From contig OZ244621.1 in assembly GCA_965218425.1 (NCBI GenBank), positions 3,776,001-3,840,000 on the forward strand: a DNA stretch of 64,000 nucleotides, written 5' to 3'. The translations under genes and the position numbers were made by a program. The notes beneath the pieces were generated by a model, which saw nothing but the letters and a program-made list of their open reading frames with translations, had not been told where the DNA came from and did not search any database. Every line of letters starts with the position of its first letter. Position 1 is the stretch's first letter. This DNA is from an uncultured Candidatus Binatia bacterium. Its GTDB lineage: Bacteria; Desulfobacterota; Binatia; UBA9968; CAXXLF01. Shown piece after piece: positions 34,285 through 44,469 of the stretch.

Positions 34285-36384
34285 ATGGCTGCAATAGAAG
34301 TCGATAAATTCCGAAATGTGGGTATCCTGGGTCACGGCGGGTCAGGAAAAACATCTCTAGGGGAGGCCTTGCTCTTTAACGGTGGCGCCACCCAACGTCT
34401 TGGCAAAGTGGACGACGGATCGTCAGTGCTGGACTACGAGCCGGAGGAGACCAAACGCCATATTTCCATTTCCGCAGCGTTTCATTCTGTCAAATGGAAA
34501 AAGTGGGTTCTCAGTTTGGTGGATACGCCAGGTTATTCCACCTTCCTGCCGGACACGATGCATTGTATGCGTGGCTTTAGTGGTGCGGTATTTCTCTTGA
34601 ATCCATCGGTGGGACTACGCGTTGAGGCCGAGCGCCTATGGGCTCAGGCCAATGAGTACAACGTCCGGCGGCTCCTCTTTGTGAACAAGGTGGATCGAGA
34701 GGATACGGAGCCCACTGATCATGTAGAGGAGATACTGAACGGGCTTGAGGCTAAAGGGGTTCCCCTCCAGATCCCCATTGGGTTTGGGGAAAACTTCTCC
34801 GGGGTCGTGGACCTTCTAACCATGAAGGCTATTAATTTTGAAGGTGATAGCGGAAAGTCGGCCCAGTCGGAAATTCCAGAGGAGCTAAAGCAAACGGCCG
34901 AGGACGCGCGTATTCGTCTTATAGAAGGTGTCGCCGAGACGGACGACGCCATGCTGGAGAAATATCTGGAAGGCAAGGAGCTCACCCCGGAGGAAGTCAA
35001 ACAAGGAATACGTAAAGGAGTTCTCTCGGGCAACCTTTTGCCAATCCTCTACGGATCAGCAACGCGCCAGATTGGCATCGCGCAGCTTCTGGATGCCATG
35101 GTGGAATATCTCCCATCACCAACGGAGGAAGCGGAGGTTAAAGGGACGAATCCCGTCACAGGAGAGGAGGAGAGGCGATCCTTTGATTTCGGTGCTCCCT
35201 TTTCAGCCTTTGTTTTCAAGACGGTCATCGATCCTTTTGCCGGGCGACTGTCCATCATGCGTGTGCTGTCGGGAAAGATTACGTCAGACATGGGGGCGTA
35301 CAACGCCAACAAGCAGAGCAAGGAAAAAATCGGCCAGTTGCTCAAGCTGGAAGGGAAAAAACAGGAGCCGGTGACCCAGGCCGTGGCCGGAGAAATTGTC
35401 GCCGCAGGTAAACTTAAAGACGTCTCTTCCGGAAATACCCTTTGCGACGAAAAGGCACCTATCCAATTCCTCCCCTTGGCCCAGTTTCCGCCAGCCATCT
35501 CCTTTGCCCTGGAGCCAAAATCCAGGGCCGACGAGGATAAGGTCGCACCCGGTTTGCATCGCATTATGGAGGAAGATCCTGGGGTTCAAATGCACCGGGA
35601 CCAGCAGACGCGAGAATTCATCCTTTCCGGTATGGGTCAGATGCACATCGAGGTGATTGTTGAGAAGCTCAAGCGAAAATACGGCGCAGAGGTGGAGCTG
35701 AAGTCCCCCAAGGTGCCCTACCTGGAAACCATAAAGGCCGGTGCCAATGCCCAGGGCAGATACAAGAAACAATCTGGGGGAAGGGGACAGTTCGGTGATA
35801 CTTGGCTCAAGATCGAACCCTTGCAAAGGGGCAGGGGGTTTGAGTTCGTAAACAACATTGTCGGGGGAGCTATCCCGAAAAATTATATACCGGCAGTGGA
35901 AAAAGGGATCAAGGAGGCAATGGCCGGTGGATACGTTGCTCACTATCCCATGGTTGACGTTCGAGCCACCCTCTACGATGGCTCCTACCACGAGGTGGAT
36001 TCTTCCGATATGGCTTTTAAAATCGCGGGATCCATGGGATTTAAAAACGCTTTGGAAAAGGCCAAGCCGGTCCTTCTGGAACCGGTCATGTCCGTGGAGG
36101 TCACGGTGCCCGAGGATTGCATGGGAGATGCCATTGGGGACCTCAACAGCCGCAGGGGGCGGGTCCTTGGGGTGGAAGCCAGAGGGCACAATCAAATTAT
36201 CAAAGCCAGGGTGCCCATGTCGGAGATTCTCAGGTACGCTCCCGATTTGACCTCAATGACCAGTGGCCGTGGAGAATTTCAAATGTCGCTCTCGCACTAT
36301 GATGAGTTACCGGCCCATTTGACGGAAAAGGTGGTCAGGGAGAGCAAGGCGGCAAACCAGGGAGAAGGCAAAGAAAAAGACTGA
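34285..36384 (+). CDS. fusA: Elongation factor G-like protein (EF-G2 type)
   Basis: GHGGSGKT, DTPG, NKVD, KKQSGGRGQFG, DGSYHEVDSS. RHISI replaces RGITI and the gene lies outside an str operon. Confidence 0.93.
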   Translation: MAAIEVDKFRNVGILGHGGSGKTSLGEALLFNGGATQRLGKVDDGSSVLDYEPEETKRHISISAAFHSVKWKKWVLSLVDTPGYSTFLPDTMHCMRGFSGAVFLLNPSVGLRVEAERLWAQANEYNVRRLLFVNKVDREDTEPTDHVEEILNGLEAKGVPLQIPIGFGENFSGVVDLLTMKAINFEGDSGKSAQSEIPEELKQTAEDARIRLIEGVAETDDAMLEKYLEGKELTPEEVKQGIRKGVLSGNLLPILYGSATRQIGIAQLLDAMVEYLPSPTEEAEVKGTNPVTGEEERRSFDFGAPFSAFVFKTVIDPFAGRLSIMRVLSGKITSDMGAYNANKQSKEKIGQLLKLEGKKQEPVTQAVAGEIVAAGKLKDVSSGNTLCDEKAPIQFLPLAQFPPAISFALEPKSRADEDKVAPGLHRIMEEDPGVQMHRDQQTREFILSGMGQMHIEVIVEKLKRKYGAEVELKSPKVPYLETIKAGANAQGRYKKQSGGRGQFGDTWLKIEPLQRGRGFEFVNNIVGGAIPKNYIPAVEKGIKEAMAGGYVAHYPMVDVRATLYDGSYHEVDSSDMAFKIAGSMGFKNALEKAKPVLLEPVMSVEVTVPEDCMGDAIGDLNSRRGRVLGVEARGHNQIIKARVPMSEILRYAPDLTSMTSGRGEFQMSLSHYDELPAHLTEKVVRESKAANQGEGKEKD

Positions 36385-36390
36385 GGGTAA

Positions 36391-36597
36391 GTGGAAGACA
36401 GCTTTAAAAATTTCCAGGCGACACTCCTTTACTGCAACAAGTGTCGTCGTGCCATGCCGGTGCGCGAACGCCTGCTCCTCGTCCTTCCGGACGGGAACCT
36501 GTACGACTACACCTGTCAGGGCTGCGGTGATTCCGTGGGCTCGAAGAGCGACAAAATCCCTGCGAATCGAACCATCACAGATCCTTTGGTGCGGTGA
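36391..36597 (+). CDS. Small zinc-ribbon protein
   Basis: CNKC...CQGC pattern; starts 6 bp after the fusA-like stop. Confidence 0.65.
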   Translation: MEDSFKNFQATLLYCNKCRRAMPVRERLLLVLPDGNLYDYTCQGCGDSVGSKSDKIPANRTITDPLVR

Positions 36598-36921
36598 TCC
36601 CAGGGAAGCCCTCCTATTTGTTCTTGGGGAGTCCAATGACGTATTTGTTTGGCCTGTAGCGGCGCCGCGGGGGTTATCGCCACTAGATATATCCTCATAA
36701 AACGTATATAGATTAACGGATTGTAGCTTAAAATTAGAGTAAGTTATAAATTATCGGTTTATTTCTGGTCATCGCAGGTTGTATCCCATGATCAGCCGTG
36801 TGCCCACCCTGGGAACCTTATCCGGTCGGCGAAAAGGCGCGTGGAGACGGTGTTATTCCTACCGTTGATGGGGCCTATTGACAATTGGGCGTGACGGATT
36901 AAATTGATGTGGGAGCAGCCC

Positions 36922-37362
36922 ATGGTTGTTTACGATTTGATCTGCGGACAAGAGCATCAGTTTGAGGGATGGTTCCCAAGTGCCGAGGGGTTTGAGGAAC
37001 AGGTGGCAGGCCAACATCTCTCCTGTCCCGTGTGTGGCACAACGAAGGTCGTGAAGCTACCCCATGCCTGCGCCATCCACACCAAGAAAGGAGAAAAGAA
37101 GAAGCGACCTCGCCGCTCCCGGGCGCCTTCCCGTCCCCTCACTGAGACGGAGGCTAAGGAGGCCCTCCTTCGGGTGCACCACTATATACGTGAGAACTTT
37201 GAGGACGTGGGCTCCCGTTTCCCGGAGGAGGCTCGTAAGCAATTTCACGGAGAGGTTGAAAAGAAAGCCATCTACGGCACGGCCACATCGGAGGAGCGGG
37301 GGGAACTGGATGCCGACGGCGTTCCCTACGCCATTCTCCCGAAGCCGGAACTGGATAGCTAG
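36922..37362 (+). CDS. DUF1178 family protein
   Basis: YDLICGQEHQFEGWF, CPVCG, EDVGSRFPEEARK, IYG. Confidence 0.88.
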   Translation: MVVYDLICGQEHQFEGWFPSAEGFEEQVAGQHLSCPVCGTTKVVKLPHACAIHTKKGEKKKRPRRSRAPSRPLTETEAKEALLRVHHYIRENFEDVGSRFPEEARKQFHGEVEKKAIYGTATSEERGELDADGVPYAILPKPELDS

Positions 37363-37592
37363 TCATCTGCCCCATTAACTCCATCCTGGTGATTCCGCAG
37401 GGAGCCACCTTCCTCTTCTGAATTCACTAAGGCTCTTTTACGAAAATTGCTTGATTTCGTAAACTGAGAACCCCGATCCTTCCCCATTTCCCCTTAGTCG
37501 GATACGGTCAAAGAGACGTCTCGCACCACAATTAGTGACGGACGGGCTTCCTTTAATTGACAAATCACCTAAGGCTCTGATACGTCAATACC

Positions 37593-38072
37593 ATGGCCAT
37601 GGACGCACGTGAAATCCGTAACGTGATGGGGCATTTTGCCACCGGGGTAACGGTTATAACAACTAAAGACTCATCTGAAAAACCCTTTGGCCTAACGGTC
37701 AATTCCTTTACCTCTCTATCCCTGGATCCCCCACTGGTCATCGTTTGTGTGGACAAAACCGTGGATTGCTACTCCTGCTTTGATGGATCAAGAGTCTTTG
37801 CCGTCAATGTATTGGGCGAAGACCAGGAAGAACTATCGCGCCGCTTCGCCACCAAGGGAATCGAAAAGTTTAAAGGGCTCCAATGGCGCATGGGGGAACA
37901 CGGGTCGCCGCTCCTTGACGGTGTCGTCGCGACCATCGAGTGCAAGGTTCACCGCAGCTATGAAGGTGGCGACCATACCATTTTTCTCGGTGAAATATTA
38001 AACGCCACCGCCAGCGGGAATAGACCCCTGCTGTTTTTCAAAGGAAAGTACAATCGTCTACCGCCGCCCTAG
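37593..38072 (+). CDS. Flavin reductase (HpaC/RutF family)
   Basis: MGHFATGVTVIT, TVNSFTSLSLDPPL, GGDHTIFLGE. Confidence 0.93.
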   Translation: MAMDAREIRNVMGHFATGVTVITTKDSSEKPFGLTVNSFTSLSLDPPLVIVCVDKTVDCYSCFDGSRVFAVNVLGEDQEELSRRFATKGIEKFKGLQWRMGEHGSPLLDGVVATIECKVHRSYEGGDHTIFLGEILNATASGNRPLLFFKGKYNRLPPP

Positions 38073-38306
38073 ACAGAAATCACCCTTCAGGTGCTCCATC
38101 CTCATAGTTCCGGCGCTCGAAGAGCCGGCAAAAGACCGATCATCCGACTTCTACATGCTCAGGTTCAAATGGTTTTGCCAAGCACTCGGAATGCTTGCGG
38201 TTCGTTCGAATTTCAAGTAATTAAACAGGACAATCACACGGGTGGGCATAAGAGCCGGAACCTCTAACCCTCCGTCGGAATAAACCATGCAGCGAGGAGG
38301 TCCCCC

Positions 38307-39047
38307 ATGCCGGTTTCCAGTGAAAGTTTCGTCAAAGAAATCCAGGAAATGGTGCAACAAAAACACTCAAAGGATCACCCTGTGATTGGGATGATAGAAA
38401 AAGGGGAGTTGAGTCGTGAGGCTCTGAAGGGATTCGTTGGCCAGTTCTATCTATTTTTCCCGAAGCCGTTTCCCAAGCCCATCGCGGCGATGTTGGGTCG
38501 GTGTCCCGATGATGAGGTATTGGAAAAAATGTGGATTGAGAACGTGGTGGAGGAGGGGACCGGGGAAATTTCCGGTACCGACAGCCACAAAGGGCTCTAT
38601 ATTCGCTTTGCTGGGGCGCTCGGGTTTTCCAAGGAGGAGCTGAACCGAGTGGAACCGCTACCCGAAACGTTGGCCTTCGTGGATTGGCGTGAGTTGCTGA
38701 TGTACCAGAGGTCCTGGTTGGAGCTCTATGCGAGTCAAGGCTTTTGCCTCGAGGGAACGGCAAGTCCCCGCATGTCGAAGATCGTTAAAGGACTAACCCG
38801 ACATTATGGTTTCAAGATGGATTCGGAAGATATCCGGTATTGGACCCTTCATATGGGAGTGGACGAAGAGCACATGAAGGTTGGCCCCGAAGCTGTGAGA
38901 AAGTATGCCGTCACCGACGTCCAACAGGATCAGGTTCGCGAGGCCGTGCAGAAGACCCTGGATATATTCTGGTTGGCCTTTGACGGCATCAAGCGTGCCT
39001 TCGTGGACAATGACCCGTTATATTCAAAGTGGAGAAATGGGTGCTAA
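38307..39047 (+). CDS. Heme-oxygenase-like diiron enzyme (CADD/PqqC/TenA superfamily)
   Basis: HP near the N-terminus, ENVVEEG...SH, LEG, HMGVDEEH metal-ligand pattern. Confidence 0.82.
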   Translation: MPVSSESFVKEIQEMVQQKHSKDHPVIGMIEKGELSREALKGFVGQFYLFFPKPFPKPIAAMLGRCPDDEVLEKMWIENVVEEGTGEISGTDSHKGLYIRFAGALGFSKEELNRVEPLPETLAFVDWRELLMYQRSWLELYASQGFCLEGTASPRMSKIVKGLTRHYGFKMDSEDIRYWTLHMGVDEEHMKVGPEAVRKYAVTDVQQDQVREAVQKTLDIFWLAFDGIKRAFVDNDPLYSKWRNGC

Positions 39048-39066
39048 AGGGAGGAATCGGACATCC

Positions 39067-39723
39067 ATGGAAATGGTAGATCTTTCACGTGTTATCTATG
39101 ACGGTATGCCAAAGATCCCCGTTCTGCCCGATGTTCATGTGAATCAGTGTTTCAGCCTGGGAAAGGGGCACGCCCTCAATGTCACTGAGATCTCTTTACC
39201 GTGTCACGCCGGGACCCACGTGGATGCCCCCGTTCATATCATTGCCAATGGGAAGTCCATTGAAGAGATGCCGTTGGAGTCCTTCGTGGGACCTGGTGCG
39301 GTGATCCCGGTAGAAAAAAAGGGTGGGGAGGAGGTCACTGCCAGGGATTTAGAGGTCTCTGGGGTGACTGTTAACCGGGGAGATATACTGATGCTGTTTA
39401 CCGGCTGGGATACCAAGTTCGAGAGCCCGGACTACAATCTTCATCCCTATCTATCCGTGGACGCCGCTCAATGGATCGTGCAAAGAGGCGTTAAGCTATT
39501 CGGCATCGACTGTATCACGGTTGATCTTCCAACCACTCTAAGGCCAAAGGATTTTGCCTTTCCAGTGCATAAGACTCTCTTGGGCAACGAGGTACTCATC
39601 GCCGAAAATGTGAACAATCTGGGTCGGATCGTTGGGAAGAAGAGTCGGATCCTCGCCTTTCCCATCATGGTCAAGGGCAGCGACGCTGCCCACGCCCGGA
39701 TCGTTGCCGAGATCCTCGATTAG
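39067..39723 (+). CDS. Cyclase/kynurenine formamidase (KynB) family metallohydrolase
   Basis: HAGTHVDAPVH motif, VHKTLL, IAENV. Confidence 0.9.
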   Translation: MEMVDLSRVIYDGMPKIPVLPDVHVNQCFSLGKGHALNVTEISLPCHAGTHVDAPVHIIANGKSIEEMPLESFVGPGAVIPVEKKGGEEVTARDLEVSGVTVNRGDILMLFTGWDTKFESPDYNLHPYLSVDAAQWIVQRGVKLFGIDCITVDLPTTLRPKDFAFPVHKTLLGNEVLIAENVNNLGRIVGKKSRILAFPIMVKGSDAAHARIVAEILD

Positions 39724-39745
39724 CCATTAAGCTGAGGAGAGAACT

Positions 39746-40714
39746 ATGCCATTCGACAAACCGGTTCACGGCATCATCGGAGCTTGTCTAACACCTTTTG
39801 GGGATGACGATCGAGTCAATTTTAAGGCGTTGGAACAAGAAATCGAATTTCTGGTGGCCGACTGTGATGCCATCTCCATCGCCGCGGTTGAGGCCGCGGA
39901 ATACACCATGCTCACCCGGAACCAGCGTAAAGAGTTGGTTCGCATCGGGACCGAGATGGTGGCAGGACGCGTGCCGGTGCTGGCGGGCTGCTCTTGCCCG
40001 TCCCCCTATGAGGTTATTGAACTGGCGGAATACGCCGCCACCGTGGGGGCCGACATGGCGCAGGTGTTGATGCAGCTTAGACCCTGGGGCCAGCAACCCA
40101 CCATAGCAGAGCTGGTGGAGTACTTTACCCAAGTGGCCTCCGCCAGTCCGTTGCCTATCGTTACCTACCACAATCCGGGTCCCGGGGCTGATCCACCCAT
40201 TGAGACTTTTGTGAAGCTTAGCGAGTTGACCAACATTCAGTACTTCAAGGAAAGCTCGCGCGATATTACCAAGATTACACGGCTGGTGGAGCAGATCGAA
40301 ATGGCGGGGAAGGGGCATTACTTCACAACCATGCAGCCCCTCCTTGCCACCCTCATGATGGGAGGCTCCGGGGCCACCATGCCGCCTCCAGGGACTCGTA
40401 TCGGCGCCCAGGTGGTGAAGGCCTTCCGTGAAGGAGACGTTAATCGAGCGCGGTATTGGCAACGGTGTTTCTCACTGTTCCCCGGTAAATGGGGGGCCTA
40501 TGGCTTACCTCCAGTAATGAAATCGGCCCTGAGACACTTCGGTGTCGATATCGGTGATCCGGTACGACCCTATACCCAGGTGACCCCGAGGGACCATGCG
40601 CAGATCGGTCAATTCTTTCGCCAGATCGGTTTGCTGGGGGACGGTGTGCCCCAAGAGCTTTCCATCAAAGAGGCCGTTGCGGGGTTGGAACAAGAAGACA
40701 CATTTCTACGCTAG
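39746..40714 (+). CDS. Dihydrodipicolinate synthase/N-acetylneuraminate lyase family aldolase (not a canonical DapA)
   Basis: LTPF, YHNP and FKES (Schiff-base Lys); AVEAAE replaces GTTGE. Confidence 0.82.
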   Translation: MPFDKPVHGIIGACLTPFGDDDRVNFKALEQEIEFLVADCDAISIAAVEAAEYTMLTRNQRKELVRIGTEMVAGRVPVLAGCSCPSPYEVIELAEYAATVGADMAQVLMQLRPWGQQPTIAELVEYFTQVASASPLPIVTYHNPGPGADPPIETFVKLSELTNIQYFKESSRDITKITRLVEQIEMAGKGHYFTTMQPLLATLMMGGSGATMPPPGTRIGAQVVKAFREGDVNRARYWQRCFSLFPGKWGAYGLPPVMKSALRHFGVDIGDPVRPYTQVTPRDHAQIGQFFRQIGLLGDGVPQELSIKEAVAGLEQEDTFLR

Positions 40715-40803
40715 CATACGCGCTCCTTGCCAAAGAATTCTTTTTGGTTTGGTCTCGCAGCGTAAGTCCAATGATTTCACGGTGGGGTCATATATAGGTC
40801 GGA

Positions 40804-41022
40804 GTGATGATACGACGAATATTTGATTGGCTCACGGAATACATCAAGACCTTTTCGGATACCATGCTGTTGCTCTTGCTTCGATCCACCTCATGGTTCG
40901 GTCGAGAGCTCACCCGGGAGGGAAGGGCGGAGCAGGACATGTGGCGGAAGCAACGGCTTAGGAACATCCGCGGCCTCGGTCTGATTTCACGCCGCCGGCA
41001 AGTGAGGCAACAGGGAGAATGA
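40804..41022 (+). CDS. Small hypothetical protein
   Basis: 72-aa ORF filling the gap upstream of the SQR-like gene; no motif recognised. Confidence 0.35.
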   Translation: MMIRRIFDWLTEYIKTFSDTMLLLLLRSTSWFGRELTREGRAEQDMWRKQRLRNIRGLGLISRRRQVRQQGE

Positions 41023-41065
41023 ACGGATACAGTCGTTTGGGAAAACTTAAGGTGGAGAACCTAAC

Positions 41066-42217
41066 GTGATCAATGGGCGGGCTCAAATCGTTATCCTGGG
41101 TGGTGGTATTGGTGGCCTTGCGGCTGCCACAAAGCTGGGTCGTTCCCTTGGGGCGAAACACGATGTGATTCTAATCGATCGGCGTGATGAGCATTTCTTT
41201 ACGCCCTCCTTCCTTTTCCTGATGTTAGGGCAACGAAAGCCGCAAGATCTAAAGAGAAAACTGAAGTTACTCGAACGGCGCAAGGTCAAGGTGATACAGG
41301 CTGAGATCCTGGGTATCGACCCGGGCCGTCAGGAGGTGGTGCTTGACAGCCAGAAGATCCCCTACGATCATCTTGTCGTAGCCCTTGGCCTGCAGACGAG
41401 GCCAGAGATGATCCCTGGTTTCAGCGAGGGGGCCAACCACGCCTGGGAGATGGATGCGGCATTGAAAGTACAACGGGCCCTGCAGCAGTTTAACGAAGGC
41501 CGTATCCTCGTGGGAGTTCCGTTGGGGCCCTATCGCTGTCCGCCAGCTCCCTATGAGACCCAGTGGTTGCTGGACACCTATTTTCGCGGCCTAGGTCGGC
41601 GCGACCGTGTGGAGATCGAGTATTTCACCCGGGAACCTGAGCCTGCGGGGGAAGCCCACGACCCCGTGGTTTGGATGGACGACCAGAGTAAGAAGAGAAA
41701 TATCAAGCAGAACTACGACTTCACCGTTCAGTCCATTGACCCCGAGAAGAAAGCCGTTGTGGGTTTGTACGGTTACAGGCTCTCATACGATTTATTGTTC
41801 ATGATTCCCCCACACAGGCCCGCCCAGGTGCTCAGGGACTGTAGCTTGGCGGACACCGAGAACGGTGTCAGGATTGACTATGAGACCCTGGCCACCAAAT
41901 GGGACAATGTTTATGCCATTGGGGACTGCGCAGAGTTGCCCGCTTCTAAGGCCGGGGGAGTGGCGCACCAGGAAGCAGACGTTGTGGCCCACAACCTGGC
42001 CGTGAAAATCACGGGTCGGGGCGATCCCACCACTCTCCGGCTCCACACCATATGACTACTGGCCTGCGGCGCAGGACGCGCCGCCGCAAATCGAACTATC
42101 TATCCGCGCGGTTGGCCTCCCTTCGGAGTGATGGAATCACGCTCCTGGGGACCTTCTCGTATGATCTATTGGGCCAAGCTCGGTTTTGAAAAATGGTGGC
42201 TCTGGCGGTACTTTTAG
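41066..42217 (+). CDS. Sulfide:quinone oxidoreductase/FCSD-like FAD oxidoreductase, probable selenoprotein (UGA at 42053-42055)
   Basis: GGGIGG, YDHLVVALG, CPPAPYE, YAIGD, KAG. The frame continues 53 codons past TGA with a family-typical tail (..WAKLGFEKWWLWRYF) to TAG at 42215-42217. Confidence 0.85.
42066..42084 (+). promoter_or_regulatory. Candidate bacterial SECIS hairpin
   Basis: GCGGCGC-AGGAC-GCGCCGC perfect 7-bp stem; the loop starts 17 nt after UGA and has G at its second position. Confidence 0.65.
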
Positions 42218-42218
42218 T

Positions 42219-43256
42219 TTAACGAGCGATGGGGAGCTTCTGATCGTTCCAGTCCACCATTCCACCCCGAAGGTTCGATACCTGCTCAAATCCAAGACCC
42301 GTTAGAATTGCAACTGCCGTGGTGCTGCGCACTCCCGAGCGGCAGATGGCCACCACGTGCCGGTTCTTATGCTCCTCCAGTTCATTGGCTCTTGTCGGGA
42401 GCTCTTTGAGCGGGATCAGGAGGCTTCCGGTAATATGTCCAAGCTCACCTGTATACTCCGATGGCTCCCTGATATCCAACAGGATGGGAGGGAGGGAAGT
42501 CGCAAGCAGGGCTTGCACATCCTGGGGAGATAACTGGCGCACCCGGTTCAATTCGGCCAGAGTGGGGAAAGCGATTCGGTCATCATCAAGTGCGGTCTGA
42601 TTGGGTTGTAGAACCTCTTGAATCTTGTCCGGCAGCGGCAACCCCAGGTTAGTCATGATATTCATGTAGGCCTCTTTTGTGCGTCCCGCCACCCGGGGAT
42701 TTAACCGCTTTTCGTCCCCGATCGTGGACATGGTGTTACCGCGATAGTCATGGGCAGGGAAAACCTGAGTGTCGTCCGGAAGCTGAAAGAGCTTCTGGGT
42801 AATGCCATCAAATTGCGCGCCCGCGTCACCGCCGCCAAAGTCGCATCTCCCGGTACCTCGAATGAGGAGCGTGTCTCCTGTCAGGATTTTTCCATTCACA
42901 TAGAGACTCATGCTGTCAGGGGTGTGTCCGGGTGTATGGAGAATTTTGATGGCGAGGTCACCTACGGTGAGGGTCTCTCCGTCATCCACATGAATATCCA
43001 CATAGGGTGCAGGCGCGCGTCGGTGCATGATTACATTAGCACCGGTGAGGTCTTTCAGTTCAAAGGTCCCAGTGCGGTGGTCCGCATGGGTGTGAGTATC
43101 AATGAGATCGTCAAGCCTCAATTGGTAATATCCAAGAAGGGAAAGGTATCGGTCGGTTTTTTCTCTAACCGGGTCAACCAGGACGGCCCTATGGGCGTTC
43201 TCGCAGGCAATGAGATAGGTCTTACATTTGCCGAGGTTGAGTTCTCGAAAAATCAT
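42219..43256 (-). CDS. Persulfide dioxygenase (ETHE1-like MBL fold)-rhodanese fusion
   Basis: THTHADH, HTPGHT, TGD, GTGRCDF, PAHDY, EKRLNPR; C-terminal rhodanese with LDIRE...CRSGVRS. Confidence 0.9.
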   Translation of the reverse strand: MIFRELNLGKCKTYLIACENAHRAVLVDPVREKTDRYLSLLGYYQLRLDDLIDTHTHADHRTGTFELKDLTGANVIMHRRAPAPYVDIHVDDGETLTVGDLAIKILHTPGHTPDSMSLYVNGKILTGDTLLIRGTGRCDFGGGDAGAQFDGITQKLFQLPDDTQVFPAHDYRGNTMSTIGDEKRLNPRVAGRTKEAYMNIMTNLGLPLPDKIQEVLQPNQTALDDDRIAFPTLAELNRVRQLSPQDVQALLATSLPPILLDIREPSEYTGELGHITGSLLIPLKELPTRANELEEHKNRHVVAICRSGVRSTTAVAILTGLGFEQVSNLRGGMVDWNDQKLPIAR

Positions 43257-43425
43257 AAATGCATCATTCCCTCCGCTTCTAACACCAAGAATAGCTATGG
43301 GCTTTCATTGTGTCAAATCAAATTTTCTGCTCCTTATGGCGTCGGTTGCTCTAATGGGCTTTGCTGTGCATAATTCCGCTGTGAATGAAGAAACGAAAAA
43401 ATCCCCACGGGCCACAGGGCCTTCC

Positions 43426-43722
43426 ATGGAACATACCTGCAGTCACTGCCTGTATTTCCAAGCTGCAAGACCGGGACGGCGTCCGCTGAAAGGGAATTGC
43501 GGTTATCATAAAGAGTGGATTGACCGTGCTTCACTCTATACCTGCAGCGAGATGAGCGCCCTTTCGTTGAAGCGAAAAGGAATCTATCGACTAAAGACAG
43601 ATGGGAAGGGGGGCTGGGTGCATGTGCGGCGTGAGGCCAAAGTCCGATCCCGACCGTTTCTGGTTAAAGGGGAAAAACCGAAAGGGAGCGGTAGAGAGCA
43701 AGGGATAGTGGAGGAATCCTAA
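43426..43722 (+). CDS. Small Cys-rich hypothetical protein (possible Fe-S or metal binding)
   Basis: MEHTCSHCLYF...GNCGYH...YTC four-Cys pattern; start uncertain. Confidence 0.5.
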   Translation: MEHTCSHCLYFQAARPGRRPLKGNCGYHKEWIDRASLYTCSEMSALSLKRKGIYRLKTDGKGGWVHVRREAKVRSRPFLVKGEKPKGSGREQGIVEES

Positions 43723-43750
43723 AGTTTACATAATATACCTTATCAGACGT
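43723..43750 (-). other. dif-like XerC/XerD recombination site
   Basis: Minus strand reads ACGTCTGATAA-GGTATA-TTATGTAAACT (11-6-11; XerD arm close to TTATGTTAAAT). Intergenic, at the switch in gene orientation. Confidence 0.8.
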
Positions 43751-43776
43751 TTTGTTATGGCCCCGATTTATTCAAT

Positions 43777-44469
43777 TTATCCTTCAGGGCTTCCTTTTAT
43801 CTTTCGTTTCAACTCTTGAATGCGTAGACCGATTTCTGCGGTTCTAACCGTCCCCGGGTAGCTGGCTAGGTATTCGCGATAGATTTTAATGGATTCGCTG
43901 AACCGGCCCATGGTCGCGGTGCAGCGGGCCTTAGACAGGAGGGATTGTTCCTTCTGTGGACCATCCAGCTTAGCTGCCTGGTCATAGGCTTGGATGGCTT
44001 CGTTGCATTGATTGGCCATTTCATGTGCGTAACCGAGATTTGCCAGAGTTAGTTGCCGTAGAAATGTGTTTTTAGACGTCCGGGTTAGCAATGTCTCCAG
44101 GAGTGGAATCGCGTTTTTCGGTTGTTTGAGGCCAATATGGCTATGGGCGCGATAGAGTATTGCCAGGTATTGGTAGTTGGGCGATCGGTATTGCTCCACA
44201 CGCTCCAGGAGATCTAAAGTTGTTTGGTATTGGCCCTCGTGAAAGGCCTCCAATGCGGTGACATAGGCTTGGGAAGCTAGACGGTTTTGTTTGGACCGGT
44301 GTAGTTGCCAACCCCAGAGGCCCAGGGACACAGCCACCACAAAGACAGCGAGCAGAATAATTTTACCCCGGTGTTCCTCGGAAAATCTGATCACCCGAGC
44401 TGTAAACGTAATAAACTGATCTGGTTGCCGGATGTCTTTACGAGTGATTCTTTTACGCGAACGCACCAT
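43777..44469 (-). CDS. Membrane-anchored tetratricopeptide repeat protein (YfgM-like)
   Basis: KDIRQPDQF, one TM helix, TPR-like helical repeats. Confidence 0.8.
   Translation of the reverse strand: MVRSRKRITRKDIRQPDQFITFTARVIRFSEEHRGKIILLAVFVVAVSLGLWGWQLHRSKQNRLASQAYVTALEAFHEGQYQTTLDLLERVEQYRSPNYQYLAILYRAHSHIGLKQPKNAIPLLETLLTRTSKNTFLRQLTLANLGYAHEMANQCNEAIQAYDQAAKLDGPQKEQSLLSKARCTATMGRFSESIKIYREYLASYPGTVRTAEIGLRIQELKRKIKGSPEG

What the first reader, a model, noticed from the sequence alone, without database searches (positions are those of the whole stretch)
41066..42217. Probable selenocysteine-containing sulfide:quinone oxidoreductase-like enzyme hidden by an in-frame UGA
Seen: the ORF track stops at ...RLHTI* (TGA 42053-42055), but the frame stays open for 53 more codons: (U)LLACGAGRAAANRTIYPRGWPPFGVMESRSWGPSRMIYWAKLGFEKWWLWRYF-TAG. 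It ends 1 bp from the convergent gene. Ten nt after the UGA is a perfect hairpin, GCGGCGC-AGGAC-GCGCCGC. Established: SQR/FCSD-family flavoproteins use two redox Cys, one in CPxAP (present: CPPAPYE) and one about 25 aa after the KAG/A-helix, and they end in an amphipathic 'K..FEK.W' helix. Bacterial SECIS elements are hairpins just 3' of UGA with a G early in the loop. Inference: the UGA occupies the second catalytic Cys position, giving a Cys/Sec active site, with an extra Cys in UxxxC. I do not recall SQR being a commonly listed selenoprotein family, and standard annotation would call this gene truncated.
Basis: partly seen in the sequence, partly recalled or inferred. Interest (0 to 1): 0.92.

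Follow-up and report, generated by a model that had tools for sequence, protein, structure and literature searches.

The report
Selenocysteine sulfide oxidoreductase with small partner
The apparent early stop in this sulfide:quinone-reductase-like gene almost certainly encodes selenocysteine at a catalytic cysteine site; such enzymes were first predicted in 2025, but this separate Binatia branch is still cut short in databases and seems to come with its own small, unnamed partner protein.

Summary
Confirmed. TGA 42053-55 lies at the second catalytic Cys column (Cys in 110 of 125 homologs). All 80 ortholog loci examined carry it, and the 53-codon tail is as conserved as the body (pN/pS 0.17 each). 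The hairpin meets all four bSECIS criteria; its stem codons are the three most constrained of 85 synonymous columns. The genome has selA, selB, selC and selD. The UxxxC Cys is not conserved (24 of 61).

A Sec form of SQR is already catalogued (NCBIfam NF049943, deep-Sep 2025, same column). This protein scores 245 against a 525 cut-off, and trees reject one clade with that family, so it is probably an independent acquisition. It is nearly fixed in one Binatia order and was truncated in 118 of 120 database hits. This scan found the branch before, in at least seven other genomes.

Added here: an unnamed 71-aa gene lies directly upstream in 48 of 48 loci and is predicted to dock on the Sec strand and C-terminal helix (0.66; controls 0.00; Cys ortholog used). 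The codon before UGA is the rare ATA in 61 of 61, unexplained. One nested Sec-to-Cys reversion exists. Activity and Sec insertion are untested.

The parts
41066..42217 (+). SQR-family flavoprotein gene, 383 aa when UGA is read as Sec
   Evidence: model pLDDT 95.5; TM 0.84-0.88 to human, Aquifex and Acidithiobacillus SQR
41537..41539 (+). Cys158, first redox cysteine (CPPAPY)
   Evidence: 61 of 61 orthologs; aligns with the first catalytic Cys motif of human SQR
42050..42052 (+). Ile329 codon ATA directly before the UGA; fixed rare codon, role unexplained
   Evidence: ATA in 61 of 61 orthologs against 57 of 1189 other Ile codons in the same genes
42053..42055 (+). In-frame TGA, predicted Sec330, at the second redox Cys position
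   Evidence: 80 of 80 loci; Cys in 110 of 125 homologs with a residue there
42066..42084 (+). Bacterial SECIS: 7-bp stem, loop AGGAC beginning 17 nt after the UGA
   Evidence: criteria from PMC13188914
42056..42214 (+). 53-codon C-terminal part after the UGA (beta strands and last helix; quinone-pocket and docking residues)
   Evidence: 53 codons in 79 of 80 loci, one cut by a contig end; pN/pS 0.172, same as the 50 codons before the UGA
40807..41022 (+). Unnamed 71-aa two-helix protein, probable partner subunit or membrane adaptor
   Evidence: 48 of 48 loci with room; same presence pattern as the enzyme in 120 of 123 genomes; no family; complex model 0.66 vs controls 0.00
39746..40714 (+). 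DHDPS/NAL-family aldolase-like gene, conserved upstream neighbour
   Evidence: 45 of 45 loci with room; Pfam PF00701
38905..39723 (+). Cyclase / kynurenine-formamidase-family hydrolase, conserved upstream neighbour (true start probably the ATG at 39067)
   Evidence: 41 of 42 loci with room
38307..39047 (+). CADD/PqqC-like haem-oxygenase-like di-iron enzyme, conserved upstream neighbour
   Evidence: 37 of 38 loci with room
42219..43256 (-). Metallo-beta-lactamase-fold plus rhodanese fusion (persulfide dioxygenase-rhodanese-like), convergent here
   Evidence: adjacent in 12 of 43 loci with room, 9 of them co-oriented directly after the enzyme gene

Best explanation
The gene encodes a full-length 383-residue selenoenzyme of the sulfide:quinone oxidoreductase (SQR) family. 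SelB bound to the hairpin delivers Sec-tRNA to UGA330 (inferred, about 0.96). Cys158 and Sec330 form the redox pair beside FAD. By analogy with solved SQRs, sulfide attacks the pair to give a bound persulfide or selenenyl-sulfide, electrons pass through FAD to a membrane quinone held by Ile329, Leu331 and Phe374, and sulfane sulfur is released to a thiol or to the neighbouring dioxygenase-rhodanese (inferred, about 0.65 for sulfide as the main substrate). Termination at the UGA would give a 329-residue protein lacking the second redox residue and most of the quinone pocket, so activity should depend on selenium supply. The enzyme probably works with the 71-residue upstream protein, whose amphipathic N-terminal helix is modelled across the Sec-bearing strand and the last helix and may attach the enzyme to the membrane (inferred, about 0.65). 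Sec was probably gained at this site independently of the catalogued NF049943 family (about 0.85). Shown here: sequence, conservation, machinery genes, synteny, tree tests. Not shown: Sec insertion, activity, binding.
For: TGA at the column in 80 of 80 loci (61 distinct full-length genes, 66-99% identical). In the genome's order, 100 of 106 matches carry the TGA and the other 6 are fragments ending before it. Cys at the column in 110 of 125 homologs, including human SQR. Equal purifying selection before and after the UGA. SECIS stem codons are fixed (CGC 61/61, GGC 59/61, GCC 58/61; every exception keeps a G-U pair) while loop codons vary; 99.7% of stem cells pair against 17-76% for slid controls. 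selA, selB, selD (itself with a TGA) and tRNA-Sec cluster at 1.30-1.31 Mb; selA in 110 of 123 genomes of the order. A Cys-bearing form nested in the clade has GAGRA changed to EPGKA over the hairpin region. SQR fold. AU tests reject joining with the NF049943 Sec rows (p 4e-55) or with that family as a whole (p 9e-5). Partner: synteny 48/48; complex score 0.66, best of 3 controls 0.00, a mark reached by 116 of 157 solved and 2 of 215 mismatched pairs, runs agreeing in at least 35% of contacts, partner pLDDT 60-71.
Against: No experiment shows Sec insertion or activity. The hairpin alone is not unusually stable and shows no double-sided compensatory change; the shuffle control is uninformative. 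selA was not found in 9 of the 105 enzyme-bearing genomes, all fragmented assemblies of 60-96% completeness. The most constant neighbours are a di-iron oxidase, a cyclase and an aldolase, not sulfur genes; the dioxygenase-rhodanese is adjacent in only 12 of 43 loci. Identity to characterised SQRs is only about 23-26%. The complex model used the Cys ortholog P0183 (68% identical), my own alignments and a bound FAD, so the calibration holds only roughly, and solved complexes of related flavoproteins with small helical partners exist (Ndh-YjlC), so likeness may contribute. The tree groups were named after a first tree was seen, under LG+G4, and the Sec-flanking columns were not removed.
Confidence: 0.8

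Rival explanations
1. It is a selenoenzyme, but its physiological substrate is not free sulfide: it serves the conserved upstream di-iron oxidase / cyclase / aldolase pathway, or acts on selenide, a persulfide or an organosulfur product.
For: The three upstream genes are present in 37/38, 41/42 and 45/45 loci with room, all co-oriented. Low identity to characterised SQRs. A structure of Acidithiobacillus SQR with selenide is listed (3sz0) and a preprint abstract reports selenide oxidation by SQOR (10.1101/2023.04.13.535674, search listing).
Against: Both redox positions and the quinone-pocket residues of SQR are kept. A dioxygenase-rhodanese follows directly in one family of the order. Synteny within a single order can be inherited without a shared pathway.
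Confidence: 0.3
2. The UGA is a true stop or a pseudogenising mutation, and the product is the annotated 329-residue protein.
For: 118 of 120 listed database relatives end there. ATA-TGA holds an overlapping ATG that could restart translation.
Against: The tail has pN/pS 0.17 and a fixed length. The overlapping -1 frame varies from 12 to 140 codons. The truncation would remove the second redox residue. Gene callers stop at any TGA.
Confidence: 0.02
3. UGA is read as Trp or Cys through an altered genetic code or leaky read-through.
For: A Cys at this site would also be catalytically adequate (P0183).
Against: TGA ends 930 of about 2716 long frames in this genome and is often the terminal stop of these same orthologs. 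The only tRNA found with a UCA anticodon is called tRNA-Sec. A constrained SECIS would be unnecessary.
Confidence: 0.02
4. Sec at this position is ancestral and shared with NF049943, with many reversions to Cys, rather than independently gained.
For: Same column and HxxU motif. Reversions do occur (P0183 here; L089 among the NF049943 Sec rows).
Against: The two Sec groups are separated by many Cys-only lineages on starred branches, AU tests reject their union, and their hairpins differ in sequence and position.
Confidence: 0.12

Closest known systems
[quoted passage not shown]
   Same: SQR fold, first Cys in CPxAP, Sec at the same column with HxxU (HATU in 7 family loci; HAVU in the deep-Sep supplement), hairpin after the UGA.
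   Different: Score 245.4 against cut-off 525; 27-36% identity; separate clade; shorter C-terminus; different SECIS. Sec is nearly fixed here, whereas 13 of 20 above-cut-off matches in the phylum sample had no TGA. Own small partner gene.
Solved SQRs: human (6OI5), Aquifex aeolicus (3HYV), Acidithiobacillus ferrooxidans (3T31), Acidianus ambivalens (3H8I)
   Same: Fold (TM 0.84-0.88 for the first three, 0.73 for 3H8I); both redox Cys positions; apolar residues flanking the second Cys and a Phe in the first C-terminal helix, which line the quinone pocket (PMC9666304 passages; here Ile329, Leu331, Phe374, the Phe equivalence being my inference).
   Different: Sec for Cys; 22-26% identity; only one C-terminal helix in the model where most SQRs have two.
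Helical membrane plugin (HMP/DUF1641) partners: Bacillus Ndh-YjlC/Ncp and SQR-adjacent HMPs (PMC13433803, PMC13524794)
   Same: A small helical protein encoded beside an SQR/NDH-2-type flavoprotein and docking on its C-terminal domain; most HMP genes lie beside SQR genes (passages).
   Different: The 71-aa protein has no detectable DUF1641 match, no PDB match, and DUF1641 was not found in this genome. It is shorter, and some orthologs carry an N-terminal hydrophobic segment. Tube or filament formation was not tested.
Flavocytochrome c sulfide dehydrogenase flavoprotein (FCSD; 1FCD, 5N1T)
   Same: Fold and two-Cys site; Pfam FCSD_central hit.
   Different: No signal peptide is evident (the Rossmann motif starts at residue 12), no cytochrome c gene is among the neighbours scanned, and the C-terminal helix is SQR-like.

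Membership tests
Bacterial selenoprotein | In-frame UGA aligned with a conserved Cys of homologs | tested here: met
   Cys in 110 of 125 homologs with a residue at the column; human SQR; P0183
Bacterial selenoprotein | UGA conserved in orthologs, with coding constraint downstream | tested here: met
   80 of 80 loci; pN/pS 0.172 on both sides
Bacterial selenoprotein | bSECIS model: loop 3-9 nt, stem 4-16 bp, G in first two loop positions, 16-37 nt spacing, energy at most -7.5 kcal/mol | tested here: met
   Loop 5 nt (AGGAC), stem 7 bp, spacing 17 nt, -16.6 kcal/mol for the 43-nt stretch; criteria from PMC13188914. The bSECISearch program itself was not run.
Bacterial selenoprotein | selA, selB, selC, selD in the genome | tested here: met
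   the three protein families over their cut-offs
Bacterial selenoprotein | Selenium detected in the protein | not testable with these tools
   needs 75Se labelling or mass spectrometry
NCBIfam NF049943 | Score at or above 525 bits | tested here: not met
   245.4 bits; Cys ortholog P0183 248.4
NCBIfam NF049943 | Sec at the second Cys column, HxxU motif | tested here: met
   HTIU here
NCBIfam NF049943 | One clade with family members | tested here: not met
   AU p 4e-55 with Sec rows, 9e-5 with all 8 family rows used
SQR family | SQR fold with FAD-binding Rossmann domains and two redox Cys positions | tested here: met
SQR family | Sulfide-dependent quinone reduction | not testable with these tools
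   needs an enzyme assay
Type III SQR | Class fingerprints and grouping with characterised type III enzymes | tested here: inconclusive
   The best model is the type III one and Cys158/Sec330 parallel Cys159/Cys339 of a type III SQR (PMC13047784 passage), but no characterised type III sequence was in my trees and PMC3570593 was not held
HMP/DUF1641 partner (for the 71-aa protein) | DUF1641 (PF07849) domain | tested here: not met
   0 of 46 members match; family not found in the genome
HMP/DUF1641 partner (for the 71-aa protein) | Adjacent gene docking on the flavoprotein's C-terminal domain | tested here: inconclusive
   Adjacency 48/48; the model supports binding but does not show it

The most novel reading that the evidence does not exclude
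An independently evolved two-subunit selenoenzyme that is a core trait of one Binatia order: a Sec-SQR docked on a new family of membrane-adaptor proteins unrelated in sequence to DUF1641, whose UGA recoding also relies on a 5' signal, the fixed rare AUA codon, in addition to the SECIS. It would be one of at least three separate Sec gains at the same SQR cysteine.
Probability: 0.3. Interest if true: 0.75.

Novelty: new variant of a known kind. Interest (0 to 1): 0.52.

Why it matters
Databases list this enzyme as a truncated 329-331-residue protein, so an intact, selenium-dependent SQR-type enzyme is being missed in about 85% of the genomes of a Binatia order (105 of 123 searched). No Sec-containing SQR has been assayed in the papers I could find. 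Natural Sec and Cys orthologs at 68% identity offer a direct test of what selenium adds to sulfide oxidation. The fixed AUA before UGA is a clean natural case for testing whether the 5' codon affects bacterial Sec insertion. The small partner may be a new type of membrane adaptor for SQRs.

Tried and rejected
UxxxC as a redox motif: rejected, Cys334 in 24 of 61. A second protein from the ATG overlapping ATA-TGA: rejected, length 12-140 codons and no conserved peptide evident. An extended RNA helix explaining the ATA: no helix of 4 or more pairs includes the base before the UGA at 90% or 75% conservation; consensus folding gives only the short stem. ATA as a general Sec context in this genome: not seen in the 15 read-through candidates of my scan, in selD or in the 7 NF049943 Sec loci. 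That scan missed this gene and selD, so it is incomplete. Horizontal spread to other phyla from record titles (Verrucomicrobiia, Acidiferrales and others): not supported where checked, since L042 and L079 matched genes from genomes of the same order over the compared stretch; the clade was found in 43 of 50 own-order and 0 of 251 other genomes of the class sample, whose 2 hits were 35%-identical forms without a stop. Rfam: no match in 36000-44000. Promoter and terminator scans: no more than chance. RNA data: no RNA holder listed. The small protein as a fused domain of other SQRs: no match among the session's SQR proteins. Atlas and fold searches for it were blank, which is not evidence of novelty. 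The metagenome scan with P0002 returned one locus of the main clade only, so the codon context of the deeper branches P0002 and P0015 is unknown. The first AU test was confounded by a Cys row nested among the NF049943 Sec rows and was repeated without it.

Full report
Observation. The frame from GTG 41066 reads to TAG 42217 with one internal TGA at 42053-42055; read as Sec it gives 383 residues. The hairpin GCGGCGC-AGGAC-GCGCCGC lies at 42066-42084. Contigs of three public runs from three studies cover the stretch without a difference; one may be the source sample. The window lies in a single-contig 4.46-Mb genome rated 97% complete. Its closest ortholog records are titled Candidatus Binatia.

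The UGA sits at a catalytic cysteine. Against human SQR both Cys158 and residue 330 align with Cys. Of 150 homologs aligned to the query, 125 have a residue at the column and 110 of these have Cys. A model built with Cys standing in for Sec has pLDDT 95.5 and matches human, Aquifex and Acidithiobacillus SQRs at TM 0.84-0.88. Passages of PMC9666304 place the quinone pocket on the apolar residues flanking this Cys and on a Phe in the first C-terminal helix. Here these would be Ile329, Leu331 and Phe374, two of them after the UGA.

The UGA and the tail are conserved. All 80 loci from two searches carry TGA at the column; 79 continue for exactly 53 codons and one is cut by a contig end. The two searches overlap; 61 distinct near-full-length genes remain, 66-99% identical. 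pN/pS is 0.172 for the 53 codons after the UGA and for the 50 before it. Across the genome's order, 105 of 123 genomes have the gene; 100 of 106 matches show the TGA and the 6 others are fragments ending before it. These tallies include four genomes flagged unpublished (G364, G366, G382, G400), one of which also shows a TAG; without them the counts are 101 of 119 genomes and 96 of 102 matches. In a class-wide sample the clade was found in 43 of 50 own-order genomes and none of 251 others.

The hairpin behaves as a SECIS. It meets the four constraints of the bSECIS model quoted in PMC13188914. Its folding energy alone is not beyond shuffles (z -1.35), and no pair shows a double-sided change. 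The evidence is synonymous constraint. Of 85 near-invariant Gly, Ala, Pro, Thr, Val and Arg columns (median top-codon share 0.56), the three most fixed are the stem codons: Arg338 CGC 61/61, Gly335 GGC 59/61 and Ala339 GCC 58/61. Every exception keeps a G-U pair, while the loop codons vary. The sequences are related, so these are not 61 independent events. Several other read-through candidates in this genome have a similar GG-led loop 17-19 nt after the UGA (that scan missed this gene and selD).

The machinery is present. selA, selB, selD (with its own TGA) and tRNA-Sec lie together at 1.30-1.31 Mb. selA was found in 110 of 123 genomes of the order and in 96 of the 105 with the enzyme; the 9 exceptions are fragmented assemblies (unpublished genomes included). 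TGA is an ordinary stop elsewhere.

Annotation. Of the 120 best database hits listed (767 passed, from 8000 candidates scored), 118 end at the residue before the UGA. The two full-length ones are informative. P0183 has Cys at the site and EPGKA in place of the hairpin-coded GAGRA; it nests inside the Sec clade, which suggests a reversion (its DNA was not seen). P0194 has Asn there.

Relation to what is known. NCBIfam NF049943 describes a Sec type III SQR. It derives from deep-Sep, which predicted it in two Desulfosediminicola species (PMC12013277; passages and supplement hits seen), and the 2026 review lists it with motif HxxU (PMC13188914; passages). The column is the same. This protein scores 245 against 525 and is 27-36% identical to family members. 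Trees place the NF049943 Sec rows deep among Cys forms and this clade elsewhere. With the confounding row L089 and three other truncated rows left out, AU tests reject one clade with the Sec rows (p 4e-55) or with the family (p 9e-5) (34 of 155 rows, LG+G4, groups named after a first tree). Independent gain is the simpler reading, not a proof. I found no paper on this clade; the Binatota genome survey PMC8262859 has no occurrence of 'sqr' or 'selen' in its main text. BSepDB (PMC13326102; passages) could not be queried and may hold it. Earlier notes of this scan reached the same reading on other genomes; they are not independent evidence.

A small partner gene. A 71-codon ORF at 40807-41022 lies directly upstream in 48 of 48 loci with room. 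Its presence matches the enzyme's in 120 of 123 genomes, and it was found in 45 of 51 own-order and 0 of 251 other genomes. It has over a thousand database relatives, nearly all unnamed or 'hypothetical' among the 120 listed, and no family. It models as two helices, the first amphipathic; some orthologs add a hydrophobic N-terminal segment. Folded with the Cys ortholog P0183 and FAD, it scored 0.66 against 0.00 for the best of three controls; 116 of 157 solved and 2 of 215 mismatched pairs reach that mark, the runs share at least 35% of contacts and partner pLDDT is 60-71. Its residues 7-29 contact the His-Thr-Ile before the Sec site and the last helix. The model supports binding without showing it; it is a cross-species pair, and likeness to solved Ndh-YjlC complexes may contribute. 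Passages of PMC13433803 and PMC13524794 describe DUF1641 helical membrane plugins, mostly beside SQR genes, that dock on the C-terminal domain. This protein looks like a functional analogue, but DUF1641 was not detected in it or in the genome.

An unexplained signal. Ile329 is coded by ATA in 61 of 61 genes, against 57 of 1189 other Ile codons in them, and no other well-filled Ile column favours ATA. Thirteen further loci, partly overlapping the earlier set, agree. An overlapping reading frame and an extended helix were tested and rejected. My inference is a decoding effect: slow reading of AUA, or its tRNA in the P site, favouring SelB over release factor 2. PMC4513850 shows partitioning between recoding and termination at UGA (passages) but nothing I saw there tests the 5' codon; that AUA is read by a scarce lysidine-modified tRNA is recalled knowledge.

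Context and function. Upstream lie a CADD/PqqC-like di-iron enzyme, a cyclase-family hydrolase and a DHDPS-family aldolase, in 37/38, 41/42 and 45/45 loci with room. A dioxygenase-rhodanese-like fusion is adjacent in 12 of 43, after discarding two weak 31-32% hits located upstream. SQR with a dioxygenase-rhodanese fits sulfide oxidation through persulfides (PMC13047784 passages), which I favour. The constant upstream genes keep a different substrate open.

Verdict. A real, well-supported selenoprotein gene, a separate branch of a recently catalogued kind, with two features worth experiments: the partner protein and the fixed ATA-TGA. Interest 0.52.

Noticed in passing
window 40807-41022 (+): Unnamed 71-aa two-helix protein, always directly upstream of the enzyme, found only in the same order, predicted to bind it.
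   Followed up: yes
window 42050-42055: ATA before the UGA in 61 of 61 orthologs against about 5% ATA at other Ile codons; cause not found.
   Followed up: partly
window 38307-40714 (+): Conserved CADD-like di-iron oxidase, cyclase-family hydrolase and DHDPS-family aldolase cluster (about 63-97% identity across loci); pathway unknown. A flavin reductase gene (37593-38072) precedes it in 3 of 51 loci.
   Followed up: partly
proteins P0132, P0152, P0423, P0424: A separate SQR lineage whose members (70-100% identical to P0152) all end one residue before the second Cys column: a probable third Sec gain. DNA not seen.
   Followed up: partly
proteins P0074, P0047: Two more single SQR homologs from other branches also end exactly before the Cys column.
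   Followed up: no
proteins P0194, P0299, P0301: A Binatia form within the clade has Asn at the Sec site and a drifted hairpin region while keeping Cys158: possibly inactive or repurposed.
   Followed up: partly
proteins P0116, P0139, P0010: SQR homologs fused to a C-terminal DsrC-like domain (two) or an N-terminal AhpC/TSA-like segment (one, weak hit).
   Followed up: no
G000:C1 at 1151839, 1339694, 2286647, 2289461, 2471140, 3004097, 3597834, 3707210, 4140079, 4425719: Further UGA read-through candidates with SECIS-like hairpins; by recalled motifs they resemble deiodinase-like, OsmC-like, glycine-reductase-like, AhpD-like, glutaredoxin-like and peroxiredoxin-like selenoproteins.
   Followed up: no
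window 42219-43256 (-): The dioxygenase-rhodanese-like gene is convergent here and in L036 and L073 but co-oriented directly after the enzyme in 9 other loci, implying a local inversion or separate insertion.
   Followed up: partly
L042, L079: Records titled Verrucomicrobiia and Acidiferrales match genes of genomes placed in the window's own order, so the titles are probably loose labels.
   Followed up: partly
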